Below, in pieces: positions 22,833 to 35,215 of a DNA stretch of 64,000 bases. The DNA lies in sequence record NC_054925.1; one strand, written 5' to 3'. A program made the position numbers and the translations under genes. Below the pieces are notes generated by a model, which was not told the DNA's origin, searched no databases, and worked only from the letters and a program-made list of their open reading frames with translations. The stretch is from Escherichia phage vB_EcoM_NBG2. The first letter of the stretch is position 1, and each line of letters opens with the position of its first letter.

Positions 22833-23122
22833 TCAGTCTCCAATTTAATGTTCATAATTCTAGCGTATGATTGTGCCATCTCCGCGCCTCGCTCTATACA
22901 TTCAAAATCGGAAGAGCACGGGTCATTTTTATAAGTCGTTCGCATAAAACTATAGAACTGTTCAGATGATTCTACGCTTTTGTTTTCAAAAAGCATATAA
23001 ACGTGTCTAATACCAGATTCCATAAATTTATCAAAATGAGGATCGACATTCGCTTCAATTGGTGGAGATAAAGCAAACGCTAATCCTAGCATGGCAAATA
23101 GTGCCGTTGCTTTTAAGGCCAT
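22829..23122 (-). CDS. rI: lysis-inhibition regulator rI (signal-anchored periplasmic protein)
   Basis: 97 aa; MALKATALFAMLGLAFALS signal-anchor followed by conserved periplasmic domain; position next to tk. Confidence 0.85.
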   Translation of the reverse strand: MALKATALFAMLGLAFALSPPIEANVDPHFDKFMESGIRHVYMLFENKSVESSEQFYSFMRTTYKNDPCSSDFECIERGAEMAQSYARIMNIKLETE

Positions 23123-23134
23123 AAAGGCCTCCTA

Positions 23135-23347
23135 TCATTTTTGTCCTGTATTTACTTTATGCCGATGCACGGCCTTAACTTTATCAAGGTATTTTTCAAA
23201 ATTTCGCAATCTAGTATAGTCTGCCGGAGATTGGTTGAGTGATACTTCTCGACGCAAAGCTGAAATGATATTTCCAACTTCCCTACGAATTTCATCTAAT
23301 TGAAGCACAGTAAGATTGCGAAGTTGCTTTTCAGTTAATTGTAGCAT
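23135..23347 (-). CDS. hypothetical protein (70 aa)
   Basis: ORF track. Confidence 0.45.
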
Positions 23348-23389
23348 ATATACCCCTTTAGTTAGATAAACCTATTTATAACTTTTGCA

Positions 23390-23971
23390 CTAACCGAGCT
23401 TTTTAGTTAATTCATTCCAATGTTTTCTACACAAAGAAACATAAATTTCATCACCAATACAGATTTGATTACCTTCTTTAACTGGTGTTCCATCTTCCGT
23501 TAATCGAGCTGTCATAATCGCTTTTTTACCGCAATGACAAACCGCCTTTAGTTCAATAAGTTTATCTGCAATCGCTAAAAGTTCTTTAGAACCTTCAAAC
23601 AATTTTCCAGCGAAATCAGTCCTTAATCCATAAGCCATAACAGGAACATTATATGTATCAACAATTCGACTTAATTGATGCACCTGTTCAGTTTTTAAAA
23701 ACTGAGCTTCATCTACAAATACGCAATGAATATCTTTTTGTGCTTCAGCCCATTTATAGAACTCGAAAATATCCATATCATCTGTAATAATATTTGCTTC
23801 CTGCCTAATTCCAATGCGAGAAACGACTTCACAGACAGAATCGCGAGTATCAATAGCAGGCTTAAGAACTAATACACTCATTCCACGTTCTTTATAATTA
23901 TGTGCAGCAGTCAAAAGAGAAGCAGATTTTCCAGCATTCATTGCTGCATAAGTAAAAATTAAACTCGCCAT
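23390..23971 (-). CDS. tk: thymidine kinase
   Basis: 193 aa; P-loop AAMNAGKS, Walker B FVDEAQF, C-terminal Cys zinc cluster. Confidence 0.92.
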   Translation of the reverse strand: MASLIFTYAAMNAGKSASLLTAAHNYKERGMSVLVLKPAIDTRDSVCEVVSRIGIRQEANIITDDMDIFEFYKWAEAQKDIHCVFVDEAQFLKTEQVHQLSRIVDTYNVPVMAYGLRTDFAGKLFEGSKELLAIADKLIELKAVCHCGKKAIMTARLTEDGTPVKEGNQICIGDEIYVSLCRKHWNELTKKLG

Positions 23972-23980
23972 ATCACCTTC

Positions 23981-24166
23981 TTAAAGCGTATTCACATAAG
24001 CTATTAATTCATTTTCTTTCTTATCAAACCGATCAGCAAATTCTTCCTGCTGTTCGGGAGATAACGGGCCGTATTCATCATAAAAGGTGTTTGCTTCTGT
24101 ATGCTCATCTAGAAGTTCATGGATAAGCTCAAATAATTTATCTTTTTGTTCTTTACTCAGACTCAT
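23981..24166 (-). CDS. hypothetical acidic protein (61 aa)
   Basis: ORF track. Confidence 0.4.
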   Translation of the reverse strand: MSLSKEQKDKLFELIHELLDEHTEANTFYDEYGPLSPEQQEEFADRFDKKENELIAYVNTL

Positions 24167-24332
24167 ATATTAATTTCCAAAAGTTTTAAAATAATTCGCT
24201 TTTGCTTAAATATTTCCACAGTTAAATGATCAGTATCTTTTTGACCGATTCCAATGGCAAAACCTTTATTAACAGCGAGTTCAATTAAATTATCAAGCTC
24301 ACGTAACACTTCGTATTGTAACTCAGAACTAT

Positions 24333-24539
24333 TCATTTCGGTTTACCTTCTTTAACGAAATCTGAATAAGGATAAAATCCCGAATAAAATCCTTCACCTT
24401 TATGATTGATGCATCCTTTATTAGAACAATAGCACCAATAATCGAAATCACAAACCATTTCATCGTTGCATAAAGCAAAAACAACCGGCCACTTACACTT
24501 TTCACAATGGGCATTTTTAAGAATACTAGTTTGGCTCAT
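24333..24539 (-). CDS. Cys-rich small protein (68 aa, start revised)
   Basis: Start coupled to upstream stop (ATGA); 9 Cys including CEKC. Confidence 0.45.
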   Translation of the reverse strand: MSQTSILKNAHCEKCKWPVVFALCNDEMVCDFDYWCYCSNKGCINHKGEGFYSGFYPYSDFVKEGKPK

Positions 24540-24748
24540 AACCATGTCACCTTCAAGCAATATTCTTCTACGTGCTGTTTGCGACCTTTCTTATCAATAA
24601 AGGTATATTCAACGAATGTTCCAATGTAGTCTTTATCTACATCATGTAGGCTATTAATTGGGCATTTAGTACGGCAAATGCGTTCCCATTGACGAATAAT
24701 TACTGCCTTATTCTTTGGGTCATATGGATGTGGATAATGTATATTCAT
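24536..24748 (-). CDS. hypothetical protein (70 aa, start revised)
   Basis: Start coupled to macro-domain gene stop (ATGA). Confidence 0.45.
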   Translation of the reverse strand: MNIHYPHPYDPKNKAVIIRQWERICRTKCPINSLHDVDKDYIGTFVEYTFIDKKGRKQHVEEYCLKVTWL

Positions 24749-25212
24749 AATAACGGTTCCCAATCAACAATCACAATTTCTAATTTAGAGGAATATGTAT
24801 CTAAAATCCCCTCAATAATATCCCAGTTCCCTTTACCTATGCCTGCACCAATCCTAGGCATATAGATTGTAGGTTTAATCAGTTTATTTTCACCAAACTC
24901 ATTTAATTCTAACATACAATTCATTAAAGCGGAATACTCAAAATTTGGCCCTGGTTGAAATTGAGTATAAAGATTAAAGCAGTAAGCTTTATGAGTCCTA
25001 AAGTATTTTTCATAAACTGAGTAAGAACCAAGTTTAGTTACATCACCCCATTCAGTCTGTAATTTATCAGCTTCCAAAATTTTAGGGAAAGCTTTAGTTA
25101 ATTGACCCGCTACGCCTGAACCCATAGTATGAAAACAATTGCATCCATGCGCAATATTTTTACCTTCAGCGAAAAGGGCGACAATATCGCCCTTGATATA
25201 TTTTACAATCAT
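24745..25212 (-). CDS. macro-domain protein (putative ADP-ribose binding/processing)
   Basis: 155 aa; KGDIV..IAHGCNCFHTMGSGVAGQL and PRIGAGIGKG resemble macro-domain Gly-rich loops. Confidence 0.6.
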   Translation of the reverse strand: MIVKYIKGDIVALFAEGKNIAHGCNCFHTMGSGVAGQLTKAFPKILEADKLQTEWGDVTKLGSYSVYEKYFRTHKAYCFNLYTQFQPGPNFEYSALMNCMLELNEFGENKLIKPTIYMPRIGAGIGKGNWDIIEGILDTYSSKLEIVIVDWEPLL

Positions 25213-25550
25213 CTAGTACTCAATCCTCGATTATAAGAATCTACCAAACGGTCAACCATTGAATGACAAGCGGCTTTATCTTTCTCCTCCGCAACTGAAC
25301 ATTCTAAGGTATTCCACTTTTTAGCATATCGTTTTAATAATGTATCGTTTTTGTATCTGCTTGATTTATCTCTTTCTCCGTCTTTATATGCATATATTAA
25401 TTTCTGTGCAAATTCAGCTTGGCATGCTTTATTTTTCCCACAATAATCTGCCGCAGTGCGGTTTACATATTCTCTAATTTCAGTATATGATGTATCTGCT
25501 GACGCAGAAAATGAAATTAATCCTATACATAAAACCAAAATTTTAGTCAT
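25209..25550 (-). CDS. secreted/periplasmic protein with signal peptide (113 aa)
   Basis: N-terminal MTKILVLCIGLISFSASA signal-like sequence. Confidence 0.5.
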   Translation of the reverse strand: MTKILVLCIGLISFSASADTSYTEIREYVNRTAADYCGKNKACQAEFAQKLIYAYKDGERDKSSRYKNDTLLKRYAKKWNTLECSVAEEKDKAACHSMVDRLVDSYNRGLSTR

Positions 25551-26088
25551 TTACTATTTCCAAAAGTTTATTATTTTTAAGGTAATTAGCCTTTTCTAGG
25601 ACTTCAGAAGCATATTTAGAACCTGCTTTAACATTCCATCCCGAATTATAAGAGGATATTGCTTTTCTTATATCGCCCTTATGTATATTTAACCAATAAG
25701 AAAGTTCAATGTACGCCCAGGAAGCTGAATTGGACCGTTTATTCAACATTCTTTTTATTTCAGCATCGGTCATATTATAACCAAGTTCCTTAACTCTTGC
25801 TCGCATAGTAGGCAAATAATTTTGGAACATTCCATAAGCGTGATGCTTTGGTTTAGATTTTAAATTAACTCCGCCAGAGCTTTCTTGCCATAAAATAGCA
25901 GCCATTATATGACCTAATCCGCTCTTGTGGATATTTTTGTGTGTTTTATATTTTCCATCCTTAGAAAATTGTTCCCCGAATTGATACGCGTAACGCATGT
26001 TATCGAGTTGGACATTACTGAAAGTATGCTCGGAGCTATGTGCCATCATTGAAATGGCCAATAGACCAGCGAGTAGTGCTTTTCTCAT
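25543..26088 (-). CDS. secreted lytic-transglycosylase-like (SLT domain) protein
   Basis: 181 aa; signal peptide MRKALLAGLLAISMMAHS; ESSGG...GMFQ motifs typical of SLT/goose-type lysozyme folds. Confidence 0.55.
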   Translation of the reverse strand: MRKALLAGLLAISMMAHSSEHTFSNVQLDNMRYAYQFGEQFSKDGKYKTHKNIHKSGLGHIMAAILWQESSGGVNLKSKPKHHAYGMFQNYLPTMRARVKELGYNMTDAEIKRMLNKRSNSASWAYIELSYWLNIHKGDIRKAISSYNSGWNVKAGSKYASEVLEKANYLKNNKLLEIVND

Positions 26089-26095
26089 GCTTACC

Positions 26096-26557
26096 TCATT
26101 GAGTTTTAATTACTGCTTTAGAAGCCTTTCCTGGTAAACGACGACTATTGATAATTGCCATCCTGCATTGAAGCGACGGGTCTTTGAACTTCGCATTAGG
26201 TTTACAAACTGTAAATCCAAGCCAAAGATTTCCATCTGTGATTTCTAAACGTCCAGGACGGTATTCAACCCCATCAATAAAATCCTCATCAATGTCAGGA
26301 CGCGGAGGCATACTCAGGAATTCATTAACTTCTAAAACATGGTCTTTTATTTTGTGGAATAATTCAAAAACATATGTCTCATCAATCTCCCGTTGAATTG
26401 CACGATCAAGAAGATGCTGAGAATATTTTAGATGAAACGATGAGACCCCTGCTGCTTTTGATGCCTCACGAATCTCATTGTTAATTTGACGAAACTCCGA
26501 CTCAAAATGACGACGAAGCTTATTTCGACGGATAAAAACTTCTGTATTGATAGTCAT
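26096..26557 (-). CDS. regB: sequence-specific endoribonuclease RegB
   Basis: 153 aa; MTINTEVFIRRNKLRRHFESEFRQ... matches T4 RegB as recalled; early promoter and GGAGA SD upstream. Confidence 0.88.
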   Translation of the reverse strand: MTINTEVFIRRNKLRRHFESEFRQINNEIREASKAAGVSSFHLKYSQHLLDRAIQREIDETYVFELFHKIKDHVLEVNEFLSMPPRPDIDEDFIDGVEYRPGRLEITDGNLWLGFTVCKPNAKFKDPSLQCRMAIINSRRLPGKASKAVIKTQ

Positions 26558-26579
26558 GTTGTTCTCCTCTTAACTGATA

Positions 26580-26618
26580 GAAAAATTATACCACAGTCAA
26601 GAGGAAAAGTAAACAGTT
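26580..26618 (-). promoter_or_regulatory. early promoter upstream of regB
   Basis: Minus strand GTTTAC (26614..26609) and TGGTATAAT (26593..26585). Confidence 0.55.
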
Positions 26619-26895
26619 ATTCTTTAAATCTAATCAATTTATTCATAGACTTTGAAACTTCTGCACGAACCTCATGTAGATTTTTGAGCTGTTCAAGACG
26701 CTGCGTATAGTAAGCAATTTCATCTTCTTCGAGACAGTCCTGTGAATCTTCTTTAAGATACCGTGCATAGTCCTGGAAAGCGTTACGGACTACTTCCTGG
26801 AAGTCATCAAGACTTTGAATTTTCTTAGGAGCAGCAGACACACGACGAGGGGCAGTATAATACTCATAACCAAACCCTGCGCTTAATTGAGCCAT
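26617..26895 (-). CDS. hypothetical protein (92 aa, start revised)
   Basis: Start [13 protein letters not shown] coupled to upstream stop (TAATG). Confidence 0.45.
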
Positions 26896-27161
26896 TAGTA
26901 TTTTTCCTCTGGTTGGAACACAGCACGACAAGCCCACATACTGGCTTCTTTGAGTTTCGTTTTAGCAATAGCTAACTGATCGAGGCTTTCAGCATAATTC
27001 TTCGCGAGTTCAAAGTCTTCGCAATTATCTAGTGCTTCCCAGAATTCATCATATAAAGCATCAAAGATAAGTCCTAAACGAACTTCAGCGTCTTTAATAG
27101 CATTTACTTTACCGATTTTTTCGTCGGTATGTGGCTTATAACCTTTAATATCTTCAATCAT
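26895..27161 (-). CDS. hypothetical protein (88 aa, start revised); by gene order this slot corresponds to T4 vs.4 (Acb2 anti-CBASS sponge), unverified
   Basis: Start MIEDIKGYK with GAGGAAG SD; positional inference only. Confidence 0.4.
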
Positions 27162-27375
27162 ATTTGACTTCCTCACCAGTACATAAATCGTATTCAACTA
27201 AACGAATAGGTTCATGAATGCCATATCCTTGAACAGAAATTTCTGTCGTAGGATAAATTCCATTAATATCACCCATGTTCCATGCTTCGTTAAATTGCTG
27301 TTCGCCTGAATTACTAAACCACTCGGCGAAAGCATTTAGCACATCTTCAGAACCTTCAATAATTATCTTTGCCAT
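27154..27375 (-). CDS. hypothetical acidic protein (73 aa)
   Basis: ORF track. Confidence 0.45.
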   Translation of the reverse strand: MAKIIIEGSEDVLNAFAEWFSNSGEQQFNEAWNMGDINGIYPTTEISVQGYGIHEPIRLVEYDLCTGEEVKYD

Positions 27376-27737
27376 TACAAACTCTCGGTGAAGGTACGAG
27401 CGATAACGTCGCGCTGCTGTTCCGGAGTCAGAGAGTTAAAGCGAACTGCATAACCGGATACACGGATGGTCAGCTGCGGATATTTTTCCGGATGCTTAAC
27501 TGCATCTTCCAGAGTTTCACGACGCAGAACGTTAACGTTCAGGTGTTGACCACCTTCAATTTTAACTGTAGGCTGTTGCTCAATTTCAATTTCACGGGCA
27601 TGCAAACCATAGAAAATTTCTGGGTCTACAAAAGAGTCCTCTTTAAAGGTTTTAGAGACAATAATTCGTGCTTGAATACCATCTTCAAAATAAATAGTAC
27701 CTTTATGTGTGCCTTCAAGAATTTGATATGCTTTCAT
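27375..27737 (-). CDS. grcA: autonomous glycyl-radical cofactor (GrcA/YfiD-like), chimeric
   Basis: 120 aa; C-terminal ~58 aa including [29 protein letters not shown] matches the E. coli GrcA C-terminus as recalled; 3' half of the gene is visibly GC-richer than surrounding phage DNA. Confidence 0.85.
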
Positions 27738-27743
27738 ATAACC

Positions 27744-28070
27744 TCAATTAGAAAATAAATTTATCCAAGATTGTTCTTTAATTAAAAATGGCTCAGAATC
27801 ATATGCCATTAAACTCTGTGTGATTAGTCCTTTAAAAGGCCCATCAATAAATTCCATGGTAAAATATGGAATTTTATTCATTAGCCGTGCATTAGGAGCC
27901 GTGCACAAAACTCTGCATCCTTTGAATACGCCTTTTTGTAATTTGTATTGCTTGGGATAAAATTCGCTCAAAATGTTATTTTTTGCCAAAATTTCAAAAT
28001 GATTCACCAATTTATTTTTAATAGTTTTTGGCGAAAAATAAAGATATTCGAAAAGCTGAGTGTCTGTCAT
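27744..28070 (-). CDS. hypothetical protein (108 aa, start revised)
   Basis: Start MTDTQLFEYLYF coupled to upstream stop. Confidence 0.45.
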   Translation of the reverse strand: MTDTQLFEYLYFSPKTIKNKLVNHFEILAKNNILSEFYPKQYKLQKGVFKGCRVLCTAPNARLMNKIPYFTMEFIDGPFKGLITQSLMAYDSEPFLIKEQSWINLFSN

Positions 28071-28657
28071 CATTGCATTCCGATTACGAAAAACTGTGGA
28101 CGAGTAATACCACCAATGCAACATTTAATATTACAGCAGCAGTGTACAGTGTCAATATGGACACTATAAATCTTATCCATATCAGGAGATTTGACAGGCT
28201 CATCAATTATATACAAAATTCGCGAAAGCGATAAACCTCTGAACTTACTTCCTTTATTACCGATAAAACTGCGCACAGAATCAGTAAATAAACGAAAACG
28301 TATATCATCATTAGAATAACGCGAAAATTCCTTTTTGATGTTATTTGCAGAAATTTTAGCGTAAGCTGAAGTATTAGAAAGAACAATAACTGTTCCACCG
28401 TCATACAACCAATTAGCGGCAAAATTAGTTACTGCAGTTGATTTACCAGATTGACGCCCACCATCTAGTCGAAGTGTACAATACTGCTTAAGTAAGTCTT
28501 CAAATGGTGGGATATAATCGTTTTTACAAATTTCTTCTACTCTAGCATCAGAATGGTGTGTAAAAGCATTCATCAGGGATAGATAAGGACCAGTTAAAAA
28601 TGTTCTCATTTTATTCTCTCTAAATTTGGGCCATTCCATGGCGCATGAATTGTCCAT
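28070..28657 (-). CDS. small P-loop NTPase-like protein (195 aa, start uncertain)
   Basis: Walker A-like GGRQSGKST and Walker B-like ILYIIDEP. Confidence 0.5.
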   Translation of the reverse strand: MDNSCAMEWPKFRENKMRTFLTGPYLSLMNAFTHHSDARVEEICKNDYIPPFEDLLKQYCTLRLDGGRQSGKSTAVTNFAANWLYDGGTVIVLSNTSAYAKISANNIKKEFSRYSNDDIRFRLFTDSVRSFIGNKGSKFRGLSLSRILYIIDEPVKSPDMDKIYSVHIDTVHCCCNIKCCIGGITRPQFFVIGMQ

Positions 28658-28762
28658 TTCTGTATTTACCCATTACCGCACTCAGGCTCGACCTTATTAC
28701 AGGTTGGCGGGAATCCCTCATAGAATCATGAGGTCCAGTTTGTTCCCATATTTCTTATTTGC

Positions 28763-29236
28763 TTATTTGAACGATTTAACGTACTGAATAGAACCTTTAC
28801 TATTTACAAAGGCAATTTTACCATTTTTATTATACATTGTAGCAGTACGTTGATAGCCATAAGTTTGTTTACCAGATTGATAACCAACTAATGCAAAATT
28901 ATCTTCACCCATTTTATTCTGTTTAGCGCGAATGCGTTCATGACCATGTGCCATAAGAACCTTAGCATCACCAGTTGCAATGGATCGACGAGTTTTTTCA
29001 TCTTCAACTGTATTAACAAAGTCGTCAAATGAATCAAATTTAGCATGAGATTTATTATACAGTTTTCCATCTACTGCATAATTATATCCCTGTACATCCA
29101 TCTCAACTTCTGTACCATCATCCAATACAGCAGTAATTTTTTGACCTTTTTTAAATTTCAAAAGATCAGTAAAAGATTCAGCGATAATTTGAGAATTAAT
29201 AGCTGCTTCAGTGATAAATTCTTGATATGTTTTCAT
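28763..29236 (-). CDS. internal (capsid-injected) protein with capsid-targeting sequence
   Basis: 157 aa; begins MKTYQEFITEA, the T-even capsid-targeting sequence pattern; adjacent to e as ip genes are in T4. Confidence 0.7.
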   Translation of the reverse strand: MKTYQEFITEAAINSQIIAESFTDLLKFKKGQKITAVLDDGTEVEMDVQGYNYAVDGKLYNKSHAKFDSFDDFVNTVEDEKTRRSIATGDAKVLMAHGHERIRAKQNKMGEDNFALVGYQSGKQTYGYQRTATMYNKNGKIAFVNSKGSIQYVKSFK

Positions 29237-34387: not shown

Positions 34388-34463
34388 TGGTCGAGGCAGT
34401 AGGGATCGAACCTACGACCCAGGACTTAGAAGGTCCTTGCTCTTCCTTCTGAGCTATGCCTCG
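34388..34463 (-). tRNA. tRNA-Arg (anticodon UCU)
   Basis: Cloverleaf read by hand: acceptor CGAGGCA/TGCCTCG, anticodon loop CTTCTAA, T-loop TTCGATC, encoded CCA. Confidence 0.8.
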
Positions 34464-34467
34464 TATT

Positions 34468-34542
34468 TGGCGGACGTGATAGGATTCGAACCTATAACCA
34501 ATCGCTTAACAGGCGATCGCTCTGCCATTGAGCTACACATCC
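34468..34542 (-). tRNA. tRNA-Asn (anticodon GUU)
   Basis: Acceptor GGATGTG/CACGTCC, anticodon stem ATCGC/GCGAT with loop CTGTTAA, T-loop TTCGAAT, encoded CCA. Confidence 0.7.
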
Positions 34543-34546
34543 AAAT

Positions 34547-34633
34547 TGGTGGGGAGTGGTGGAGTCGAACCACCCGAGTCGCAATGACAATGAATTTACA
34601 GTCCACACCGCTACCCCTACGGGATAACTCCCC
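34547..34633 (-). tRNA. tRNA-Tyr (anticodon GUA), type II with long variable arm
   Basis: Acceptor GGGGAGT/ACTCCCC, anticodon loop CTGTAAA, long variable arm, T-loop TTCGACT, encoded CCA. Confidence 0.65.
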
Positions 34634-34642
34634 AAATTAATT

Positions 34643-34717
34643 TGGTGGCCCTGGGTGGAATTGAACCACCATCTGGCGATTATGAGTCGCGTGCTTGAAC
34701 CTTCCAGCTACAGGGCC
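34643..34717 (-). tRNA. tRNA-Ile/Met (anticodon CAU; probably the AUA-reading tRNA-Ile as in T4)
   Basis: Acceptor GGCCCTG/CAGGGCC, anticodon loop CTCATAA, T-loop TTCAATT, encoded CCA. Confidence 0.7.
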
Positions 34718-34718
34718 T

Positions 34719-34794
34719 TGGTGCTGATTGACGGAATCGAACCGCCGACCTTCTCATTACAAGTGAGTTGCTCTACCTACTGAGCTAAATCAGC
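34719..34794 (-). tRNA. tRNA-Thr (anticodon UGU)
   Basis: Acceptor GCTGATT/AATCAGC, anticodon loop CTTGTAA, T-loop TTCGATT, encoded CCA. Confidence 0.8.
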
Positions 34795-34799
34795 AAAAC

Positions 34800-34889
34800 T
34801 GGCGGAGGCGATAGGATTTGAACCTATGAGTCGCCGGAGCGACTGCCGGTTTTCAAGACCGGTGCATTAAACCACTCTGCCACGCCTCC
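34800..34889 (-). tRNA. tRNA-Ser (anticodon UGA), type II
   Basis: Acceptor GGAGGCG/CGCCTCC, anticodon loop CTTGAAA, long variable arm, T-loop TTCAAAT. Confidence 0.8.
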
Positions 34890-34891
34890 AG

Positions 34892-34965
34892 TCTCCATAC
34901 AAGGATTTGAACCTTGGACCTCCTGATCCCAAATCAGGCGCTCTACCAAACTGAGCTACACGGAG
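34892..34965 (-). tRNA. tRNA-Pro (anticodon UGG), CCA not encoded
   Basis: Acceptor CTCCGTG/TATGGAG, anticodon loop TTTGGGA, T-loop TTCAAAT; 3' end followed by AC rather than CCA. Confidence 0.75.
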
Positions 34966-34975
34966 TAAATTAAAT

Positions 34976-35049
<74 letters not shown>

Positions 35050-35054
35050 AAATT

Positions 35055-35141
35055 TGGTGCGAGAAGTGGGACTCGAACCCACAAGGAAATCATTCCGCAG
35101 CATTTTAAGTGCTGTGCCTTTACCAATTTGACCATTCTCGC
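35055..35141 (-). tRNA. tRNA-Leu (anticodon UAA), type II
   Basis: Acceptor GCGAGAA/TTCTCGC, anticodon loop CTTAAAA, long variable arm, T-loop TTCGAGT, encoded CCA. Confidence 0.8.
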
Positions 35142-35142
35142 G

Positions 35143-35215
35143 CTGGGAATAAAGGACTCGAACCTTTGCATCCTGGAATCAAAATCCAGTGCCTTACCAA
35201 CTTGGCTAATTCCCA
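35143..35215 (-). tRNA. tRNA-Gln (anticodon UUG)
   Basis: Acceptor TGGGAAT/ATTCCCA, anticodon loop TTTTGAT, T-loop TTCGAGT; 1-nt spacer to tRNA-Leu (dimeric precursor arrangement). Confidence 0.8.

What the first reader, a model, noticed from the sequence alone, without database searches (positions are those of the whole stretch)
24745..25212. Macro-domain protein in the tk-regB interval
The 155-aa ORF carries Gly-rich loops typical of macro domains (ADP-ribose binding or hydrolysis). T-even phages encode ADP-ribosyltransferases (Alt, ModA, ModB, known from T4), and hosts use ADP-ribosylation or NAD-derived signals in defence. A phage macro domain could therefore reverse ADP-ribosylation or degrade a signalling nucleotide. 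Whether this is the conserved T4 gene at this position is not something I can confirm from memory.
Basis: partly seen in the sequence, partly recalled or inferred. Interest (0 to 1): 0.5.

Follow-up and report, generated by a model that had tools for sequence, protein, structure and literature searches.

The report
T4 Tk.4/AdfM macrodomain, anti-DarTG2 factor
The ORF is a real macro-domain gene, identical in protein sequence to phage T4 Tk.4, which a 2025 preprint renamed AdfM and showed protects T4 from the bacterial DarTG2 DNA-ADP-ribosylating defence, so the finding is correct but already known.

Summary
Window 24745-25212 (minus strand) encodes a 155-aa protein that is 100% identical to phage T4 Tk.4 (NP_049723). 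It sits in the conserved order tk ... tk.3, tk.4, vs, vs.1, regB.

It is a true macro domain:
- Pfam PF01661 scores 27.7 bits against a cut-off of 22.
- An AlphaFold model built with an alignment reaches pLDDT 95.

The A1pp/macro assignment for tk.4 dates from 2006. A 2025 preprint (HIDEN-SEQ) found tk.4 to be the only T4 gene needed on a DarTG2 host, confirmed this with a clean knockout, and named it adfM. I found no published biochemistry for T4 Tk.4.

What I add concerns the active site. The position of the catalytic lysine of DarG (K80) and TARG1 (K84) holds a glutamine (Q84) that is invariant in 115 relatives, supported by N25. This is the lysine-free arrangement of Streptomyces SCO6735, which cleaves DarT-made thymidine-ADP-ribose. 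Tk.4 is therefore not a DarG copy: it has no lysine, no DarT-binding domain and no DarT neighbour.

Verdict: observation confirmed, interpretation supported, already known, low interest.

The parts
24745..25212 (-). tk.4 / adfM coding sequence, 155 aa, a single macro domain
   Evidence: ORF listing. 100% aa identity to T4 NP_049723. Pfam Macro 27.7 bits against a cut-off of 22. PHROG 335 at 1.3e-65. AF2 model pLDDT 95.3.
25135..25149 (-). Codons for H22-G23-C24-N25-C26. N25 is the conserved macrodomain asparagine, equivalent to SCO6735 N27, Mtb DarG N22 and PhiKZ gp104 N23.
   Evidence: Residue counts in the family alignment: H 110/115, G 114, C 109, N 114, C 114. Profile alignments to the reference enzymes. 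SCO6735 N27S is nearly inactive (PMC9411070). A mutation of a conserved asparagine in PhiKZ gp104, whose N23A construct is listed in that paper's methods, reduces activity (PMC13309987).
25108..25122 (-). Codons for G31-S-G33-V-A35, the first glycine-rich (GxG) ADP-ribose-binding loop
   Evidence: G33 and A35 are invariant and G31 is 102/115. The GxG loop is a defining macro-domain feature (PMC9503650).
24961..24975 (-). Codons for N80-L-Y82-T83-Q84. Q84 occupies the position of the catalytic Lys of DarG (K80) and TARG1 (K84), and of Gln85 of SCO6735.
   Evidence: Q84 and Y82 are invariant in 115/115 sequences. Profile alignments give nlYTQ = TARG1 YLITK = DarG NFPTK = SCO6735/BT1257 NMIGQ. 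The codon at 24961-24963 reads ttg on the + strand, which is CAA (Gln) on the coding strand.
24823..24858 (-). Codons for P119-R-I-G122-A-G124-I-G-K-G-N-W130, the second glycine-rich (diphosphate-binding) loop. G126 sits where TARG1 has the catalytic Asp125.
   Evidence: P119, I121, G122 and G124 are invariant; W130 is 113/115. Alignment to TARG1 IGCGLDRLQW and SCO6735 IGCGLAGGTW.
25209..25212 (-). Four-base overlap between the vs stop codon and the tk.4 start codon, consistent with translational coupling
   Evidence: ORF coordinates vs 25209-25550 and tk.4 24745-25212. The same arrangement is annotated in T4.
24745..24748 (-). ATGA overlap between the tk.4 stop codon and the tk.3 start codon
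   Evidence: Sequence read directly. tk.3 (24536-24748) matches T4 tk.3 with 1 aa difference in 70.

Best explanation
The gene is the T4 tk.4 orthologue, recently renamed adfM (anti-DarT factor, macrodomain). It is a stand-alone 17.5-kDa macrodomain of the ALC1-like class, which includes TARG1, DarG, Poa1p and SCO6735.

Proposed mechanism: the host toxin DarT2 ADP-ribosylates thymidines in single-stranded phage DNA during infection and blocks replication. Tk.4 binds the ADP-ribose through its two glycine-rich loops and hydrolyses the thymidine-ribose bond, releasing ADP-ribose and restoring usable DNA.

The chemistry is probably the lysine-independent kind described for SCO6735. The invariant Gln84, held in place by Asn25, would position the distal ribose and the transition state while a water molecule does the chemistry. 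This differs from the Lys80-dependent route of DarG.

What is shown and what is inferred:
- Shown here: the identity with T4 Tk.4, the fold and the active-site residues.
- Shown in the literature for the identical T4 protein: the anti-DarTG2 phenotype.
- Inferred: the hydrolysis itself and the role of Gln84.
For: - Identity: 155/155 aa to T4 Tk.4, with conserved neighbours.
- Weak but specific DarG profile hits: NCBIfam 30.3 bits and PADLOC 36 bits.
- Genetics (literature): tk.4 was the only significant hit in a T4 transposon library on a DarTG2 host, and a clean knockout was sensitised.
- Active site: Q84 aligns with DarG K80, TARG1 K84 and SCO6735 Q85, and is invariant in 115/115 relatives. 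N25 is present in 114/115.
- Precedent: SCO6735 lacks the lysine, cleaves DarT-made thymidine-ADPr on ssDNA and rescues E. coli from DarT. Q85A is inactive and N27S nearly so (PMC9411070).
- Another phage macrodomain, PhiKZ gp104, removes DarT2 marks from DNA in vitro (PMC13309987).
- Purifying selection: 7 synonymous and 0 non-synonymous differences from T4.
- Phage T5, which the preprint used as its DarTG2-sensitive control, encodes no detectable macrodomain of this class.
Against: - I found no biochemical assay of T4 Tk.4. Hydrolysis is inferred by homology at about 20-29% identity to the characterised enzymes.
- The genetic evidence is a preprint, obtained at 30 C in minimal medium.
- Tk.4 lacks features that the SCO6735 paper links to efficient DNA de-modification. 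The loop after the Gln is 8 residues, against 13-14 in SCO6735/BT1257 where it carries Lys89. Gly23 stands in place of Val25 and Ser32 in place of Lys34.
- The protein is mildly acidic (pI 5.9), whereas SCO6735 has pI 9.7. PhiKZ gp104 has pI 5.05 and is active, so this point is weak.
- The role proposed for Gln in SCO6735 rests on mutagenesis and molecular dynamics, not on a substrate-bound structure.
Confidence: 0.75

Rival explanations
1. Tk.4 protects against DarTG2 mainly without catalysis, by binding and inhibiting DarT2 or by shielding the modified site, rather than by removing ADP-ribose.
For: Catalytically dead SCO6735 Q85A, DarG K80A and TARG1 K84A all reduced DarT activity in vitro, SCO6735 most strongly (PMC9411070). 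The knockout phenotype alone cannot separate hydrolysis from inhibition.
Against: Tk.4 has no counterpart of the DarT-binding C-terminal domain of DarG: it is 155 aa, whereas the DarG profiles are 329-338 positions long. The strict invariance of Q84, N25 and both glycine loops across relatives of 35-60% identity is what an enzyme active site would show. A phage protein facing diverse DarT2 variants gains more from acting on the common product.
Confidence: 0.1
2. The main physiological substrate is something other than DNA: ADP-ribose-1''-phosphate or O-acetyl-ADP-ribose (the 'phosphatase' annotation, like Poa1p), or ADP-ribosylated protein or RNA. Anti-DarT2 activity would then be a side activity.
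Against: The only phenotype on record is specific to DarTG2. Poa1p has Ser, not Gln, at the position of Q84. The SCO6735 paper argues that thymidine-ADPr reversal is a shared activity of this macrodomain class (PMC9411070). The 'phosphatase' label comes from the old SMART A1pp domain name (PMC1524935), not from an assay.
Confidence: 0.1
3. Tk.4 erases or tunes the phage's own ADP-ribosylation marks, made by Alt, ModA and ModB on host proteins, or ModB-mediated RNAylation.
Against: From established knowledge, not tested here: Alt and Mod modify arginine, a linkage that macrodomains are not known to cleave. The gene is not adjacent to alt or mod in this window, and a profile of the class finds no other member in the window. 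The HIDEN-SEQ passages I read report tk.4 only as a hit conditional on DarTG2.
Confidence: 0.03

Closest known systems
Phage T4 Tk.4 = AdfM (NP_049723; bioRxiv 10.1101/2025.11.20.689424)
   Same: Identical protein (155/155). Same position upstream of tk.3 and downstream of vs, vs.1 and regB.
   Different: Nothing at protein level; 7 synonymous nucleotide differences. The host phage is not T4 itself: the tk.1-tk.2 segment is replaced. The best DNA match for the 24000-26600 stretch searched is phage vB_EcoM_ACG-C40 at 98.7%.
Streptomyces coelicolor SCO6735 (PDB 5E3B) and Bacteroides BT1257 (2FG1/2AFC): lysine-free ALC1-like macrodomains
   Different: The loop after the Gln is short, 8 residues against 13-14, and lacks Lys89. 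Gly23 replaces Val/Ile25 and Ser32 replaces Lys34. Tk.4 is acidic rather than strongly basic. Sequence identity is only 20-29%. Tk.4 is phage-borne.
DarG antitoxin macrodomain of DarTG2 (Mtb 5M3I, T. aquaticus 5M31/5M3E, Thermosipho 7OMU)
   Different: The catalytic Lys80 is replaced by Gln. There is no C-terminal DarT-binding domain and no adjacent darT. The NCBIfam DarG equivalog scores 30.3 bits against a cut-off of 250.
PhiKZ gp104, the chimallivirus 'AdfM' (PMC13309987)
   Same: A phage macrodomain that counters DarTG2 and was independently given the same name. The conserved Asn is present (N23 = N25).
   Different: gp104 has the DarG-type FPTK lysine motif (sequence, translated). It is the most distant of the references from the Tk.4 profile (37.3 bits). 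It is imported into the phage nucleus. Its activity on DNA was shown in vitro, whereas that of Tk.4 has not been.
Human TARG1/OARD1 (4J5R) and yeast Poa1p (6LFQ)
   Same: Same class and size. TARG1 is the top Foldseek hit. Poa1p shares the H-x-C-N-C motif.
   Different: The TARG1 Lys84/Asp125 dyad is absent: Tk.4 has Gln84 and Gly126 there. Poa1p has Ser at the Gln position.

Membership tests
Macro domain (Pfam PF01661) | Profile score above the curated gathering threshold | tested here: met
   27.7 bits against a cut-off of 22, residues 22-132.
Macro domain (Pfam PF01661) | Alpha/beta macrodomain fold | tested here: met
Macro domain (Pfam PF01661) | Glycine-rich ADP-ribose-binding loops (GxG after strand 2, and the diphosphate loop) | tested here: met
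   G31-x-G33 and I121-G-A-G124 are invariant or nearly invariant.
ALC1-like macrodomain class (TARG1 / DarG / Poa1p / SCO6735) | Closest structural and sequence neighbours are members of the class, separated from other classes | tested here: met
T4 Tk.4 / AdfM orthologue group | Sequence identity and conserved position between vs and tk.3 | tested here: met
   155/155 identity. Flanks are 97-98% identical to T4.
T4 Tk.4 / AdfM orthologue group | Required for growth on a DarTG2-expressing host | not testable with these tools
   Reported for T4 in bioRxiv 10.1101/2025.11.20.689424. Needs plaque assays.
DarG antitoxin (NCBIfam NF048014 equivalog) | Score above the equivalog cut-off, which implies the two-domain architecture with the C-terminal DarT-binding domain | tested here: not met
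   30.3 bits against a cut-off of 250. The match covers only profile positions 2-146 of 338, and the protein is 155 aa.
DarG antitoxin (NCBIfam NF048014 equivalog) | Catalytic lysine (Lys80) | tested here: not met
   Gln84 aligns with DarG K80 in profile alignments to both Mtb and T. aquaticus DarG. Gln is invariant in the family.
DarG antitoxin (NCBIfam NF048014 equivalog) | Encoded next to a darT toxin gene | tested here: not met
   The neighbours are vs and tk.3. The two 'bacterial MAG' homologues I checked lie in T4-like phage contigs with no DarT.
SCO6735-type lysine-free thymidine-ADPr hydrolases | Gln at the catalytic-lysine position, held by the conserved Asn | tested here: met
   Q84 = Q85 and N25 = N27. 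Both are conserved.
SCO6735-type lysine-free thymidine-ADPr hydrolases | Extended mobile loop with Lys89, and Val/Ile25 | tested here: not met
   The loop from Q84 to Y93 is 8 residues in 82 of 115 family members, against 13-14 in SCO6735/BT1257. Gly23 occupies the Val25 position.
SCO6735-type lysine-free thymidine-ADPr hydrolases | Hydrolysis of DarT-made thymidine-ADPr on ssDNA | not testable with these tools
   Needs an enzyme assay. Shown for SCO6735 and for the Lys-type PhiKZ gp104, not for Tk.4.
TARG1 | Lys84/Asp125 catalytic dyad | tested here: not met
   Gln84 and Gly126 occupy the aligned positions.
Poa1p-type ADP-ribose-1''-phosphate phosphatase | Phosphatase activity on Appr1p | not tested
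   Only the H-x-C-N-C motif and the fold are shared. The residue at the Q84 position differs (Ser in Poa1p). The 'phosphatase' label in RefSeq and PHROGs derives from the domain name.

The most novel reading that the evidence does not exclude
The T-even 'AdfM' would be an independently recruited, lysine-free (Gln84) branch of the ALC1-like macrodomains rather than a captured DarG, and so convergent with the lysine-type AdfM of PhiKZ. Because it is spread over about 5% of sequenced phage records, it may have a broader substrate range than DarT2 products, for example protein Glu/Asp-ADPr or RNA-linked ADPr made by other host ADP-ribosyltransferase defences.
Probability: 0.3. Interest if true: 0.4.

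Novelty: already known. Interest (0 to 1): 0.15.

Why it matters
DarTG systems stop phages by ADP-ribosylating their DNA. T-even phages carry two separate erasers, the NADAR protein AdfN against DarTG1 and this macrodomain against DarTG2, which explains their resistance. That is already in the literature, so this window adds no new biology.

The one useful refinement is that T4 Tk.4 lacks the catalytic lysine of DarG and carries the Gln/Asn arrangement of SCO6735. The natural mutants for a mechanistic test are therefore Q84 and N25. It also means the two phage proteins now both called AdfM (T4 Tk.4 and PhiKZ gp104) belong to different catalytic types.

Tried and rejected
- AlphaFold without an alignment gave an unusable model (pLDDT 38.6). 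I discarded it and used the alignment-based model.
- The sigma-70 promoter scan of 23000-29000 found 23 sites against 23.5 expected, so it is uninformative. The best-placed candidate on the coding strand lies upstream of regB (26613-26585). No terminator-like site was found on the minus strand. I make no claim about expression timing from sequence.
- I looked for bacterial relatives next to a darT gene, to test the idea of a captured antitoxin. The two homologues labelled as bacterial MAG proteins (P0072, P0118) sit in T4-like phage contigs carrying Rnl1, a Dda-like helicase, PNKP, spanin or dCMP deaminase, with no DarT. This gives no support for a recent DarG origin, but only two contigs were checked.
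- I considered filing the protein as DarG and rejected it: it has Gln instead of Lys80, lacks the second domain, and scores 30 bits against a cut-off of 250.
- I considered that the acidic pI (5.9) argues against DNA binding and rejected that, because PhiKZ gp104 has pI 5.05 and is active on DNA.
- I checked phage T5, the DarTG2-sensitive control of the preprint, for any macrodomain of this class. None was found with either the family profile or a profile of six reference enzymes (best hit 9.2 bits, E 0.04). The reference profile finds Tk.4 in the window at 65 bits. This is consistent but rests on a single genome.
- The planned combined class profile (references plus family members) was not built because a sub-script failed. 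The profile actually used there contains only the six reference enzymes.

Full report
**Observation.** A 155-codon ORF runs from the ATG at 25212 to the TGA at 24745 on the minus strand, exactly as reported. It lies in a same-strand array. Its start overlaps the stop of vs by 4 bases, and its stop overlaps the start of tk.3 in an ATGA.

**Identity of the gene.**
- The 2.6 kb around the ORF matches 671 phage records, nearly all Tequatrovirus, with vB_EcoM_ACG-C40 best at 98.7%.
- In those records the gene is labelled 'macro domain protein', 'Poa1p-like family protein', 'ADP-ribose binding module protein', 'phosphatase' or 'hypothetical protein'.
- The T4 reference record has the same order: tk, tk.1-3, tk.4, vs, vs.1, regB. 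There tk.4 is annotated 'phosphatase; contains A1pp phosphatase motif'.
- The window protein is 155/155 identical to T4 Tk.4. The two genes differ at 7 nucleotides, all synonymous.
- The window is not T4 itself. Between tk and tk.3 (23972-24534) the sequence has no match to the T4 region and carries three different small ORFs, while both flanks are 97-98% identical to T4.

**Macro domain.**
- Pfam Macro scores 27.7 bits against a cut-off of 22, and PHROG 335 gives 1.3e-65.
- A single-sequence AlphaFold run failed (pLDDT 38.6). With an alignment of 115 relatives the model reached pLDDT 95.3 and pTM 0.91.
- Foldseek against the PDB puts TARG1, Poa1p, BT1257, DarG and SCO6735 on top.
- The protein therefore belongs to the ALC1-like class of macrodomains.

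**What is already published.**
- The A1pp (macro) assignment for tk.4 orthologues was made in 2006 (PMC1524935).
- A 2025 preprint screened a T4 transposon library on E. coli expressing DarTG2. tk.4 was the single significant hit, and a clean knockout was sensitised. The authors renamed the gene adfM and proposed that it removes ADP-ribose from DNA (10.1101/2025.11.20.689424). They described the protein as a DarG homologue and reported no biochemistry.
- A 2026 paper independently used the name AdfM for PhiKZ gp104. It showed in vitro removal of DarT2-made ADP-ribose from DNA and rescue from DarT2 toxicity (PMC13309987).
- A full-text search for 'Tk.4' found no other functional study. A T2 study detected the protein in infected cells.

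**Active site: the one point that goes beyond the literature I found.** I recovered the sequences of the solved reference enzymes from PDB searches and aligned them to a profile of the Tk.4 family.
- The motif N80-L-Y-T-Q84 aligns with TARG1 Y-L-I-T-K84, DarG N-F-P-T-K80 and SCO6735/BT1257 N-M-I-G-Q85. Tk.4 thus has glutamine where DarG and TARG1 have their catalytic lysine. It also has Gly126 where TARG1 has Asp125.
- Gln84 is invariant in all 115 relatives, which range from 34% to 98% identity to the query. Asn25 is present in 114 of 115.
- This matches SCO6735, a lysine-free member of the class. SCO6735 cleaves DarT-made thymidine-ADP-ribose on ssDNA and rescues E. coli from DarT. Its Q85A mutant is dead and N27S nearly so. 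The authors proposed a water-mediated mechanism in which Gln positions the distal ribose (PMC9411070).
- PhiKZ gp104 keeps the DarG-type F-P-T-K motif. The two phage 'AdfM' proteins are therefore of different catalytic types.
- Tk.4 differs from SCO6735 in three ways. The loop after the Gln is short (8 residues against 13-14) and has no Lys89. Gly23 replaces Val25. Ser32 replaces Lys34.

**Not a DarG.** The NCBIfam DarG equivalog scores 30.3 bits against a cut-off of 250, and the match covers only the macrodomain half. PADLOC DarG scores 36 bits. There is no second domain and no darT neighbour.

**Distribution.**
- tblastn finds the family in 2749 of 50,697 phage records. These include Straboviridae of many hosts, and phages of Escherichia, Salmonella, Pseudomonas, Campylobacter and others with genomes of about 85-175 kb.
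- This agrees with the published estimate that 41% of myoviruses carry a macro domain (PMC9503650).
- Two homologues deposited as bacterial MAG proteins lie in T4-like phage contigs.
- Phage T5, the DarTG2-sensitive control in the preprint, has no detectable member of the class.

**Mechanism and confidence.**
- Most likely (0.75): Tk.4 hydrolyses thymidine-linked ADP-ribose placed on phage ssDNA by DarT2, using a Gln84/Asn25 lysine-independent active site.
- The identity, fold and residues are shown here. The phenotype is from a preprint on the identical protein. The catalysis is inferred.
- Rivals: inhibition of DarT2 by binding (0.1); a different main substrate such as Appr1p, OAADPr, or protein- or RNA-linked ADPr (0.1); erasure of the phage's own Alt/Mod marks (0.03).

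**Verdict.** The gene and its role are already known, so interest is low. The Gln-for-Lys difference is a modest, testable refinement.

Noticed in passing
window 23972-24534: The segment between tk and tk.3 has no blastn match to the T4 tk.1-tk.2 region, although both flanks are 97-98% identical to T4. It carries three small minus-strand ORFs (23981-24166, 24163-24336, 24333-24545) that match PHROGs 653, 3452 and 2306, all of unknown function. This looks like a swapped cassette of accessory genes. The third ORF is cysteine-rich.
   Followed up: partly
window 34388-35215: A cluster of 10 tRNA genes on the minus strand: Arg, Asn, Tyr, Met(CAT), Thr, Ser, Pro, Gly, Leu, Gln. From my own knowledge T4 is usually listed with 8, so Asn-GTT and Tyr-GTA would be extras in this phage. 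I did not check this against the T4 record.
   Followed up: no
window 25209-25550: The vs gene (valyl-tRNA synthetase modifier) is two codons shorter than in T4: a Ser-Ala repeat is missing from the hydrophobic, signal-peptide-like N-terminus. It is otherwise identical. The HIDEN-SEQ preprint reports vs as the most depleted T4 gene in minimal medium.
   Followed up: no
window 24536-24748 and 25543-26088: Annotation noise in public records. The 70-aa tk.3 homologue is labelled 'putative ABC transporter ATP-binding protein'. The vs.1 homologue matches PHROG 600 (unknown function, 2.1e-68) with weak matches to lytic tail protein and endolysin families, and was assigned an SLT transglycosylase domain in the 2006 study, yet it is labelled 'endoribonuclease' in the ESCO58 record.
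   Followed up: partly
L006 7689-8195 (phage T5 gene T5.105): This T5 gene is annotated 'Sir2 (NAD-dependent deacetylase)'. Its N-terminus reads I-F-L-D-I-D-G-V-L-N, which looks to me like a HAD-phosphatase motif, and it does not match the macrodomain profiles. It is probably mis-annotated. T5.102 nearby is also labelled Sir2.
   Followed up: no
literature (PMC13309987 and bioRxiv 10.1101/2025.11.20.689424): Two groups independently gave the name AdfM to non-orthologous phage macrodomains. PhiKZ gp104 is of the lysine type (FPTK motif) and T4 Tk.4 is of the glutamine type (YTQ motif). PhiKZ gp104 scores only 37 bits against the Tk.4 family profile.
   Followed up: yes
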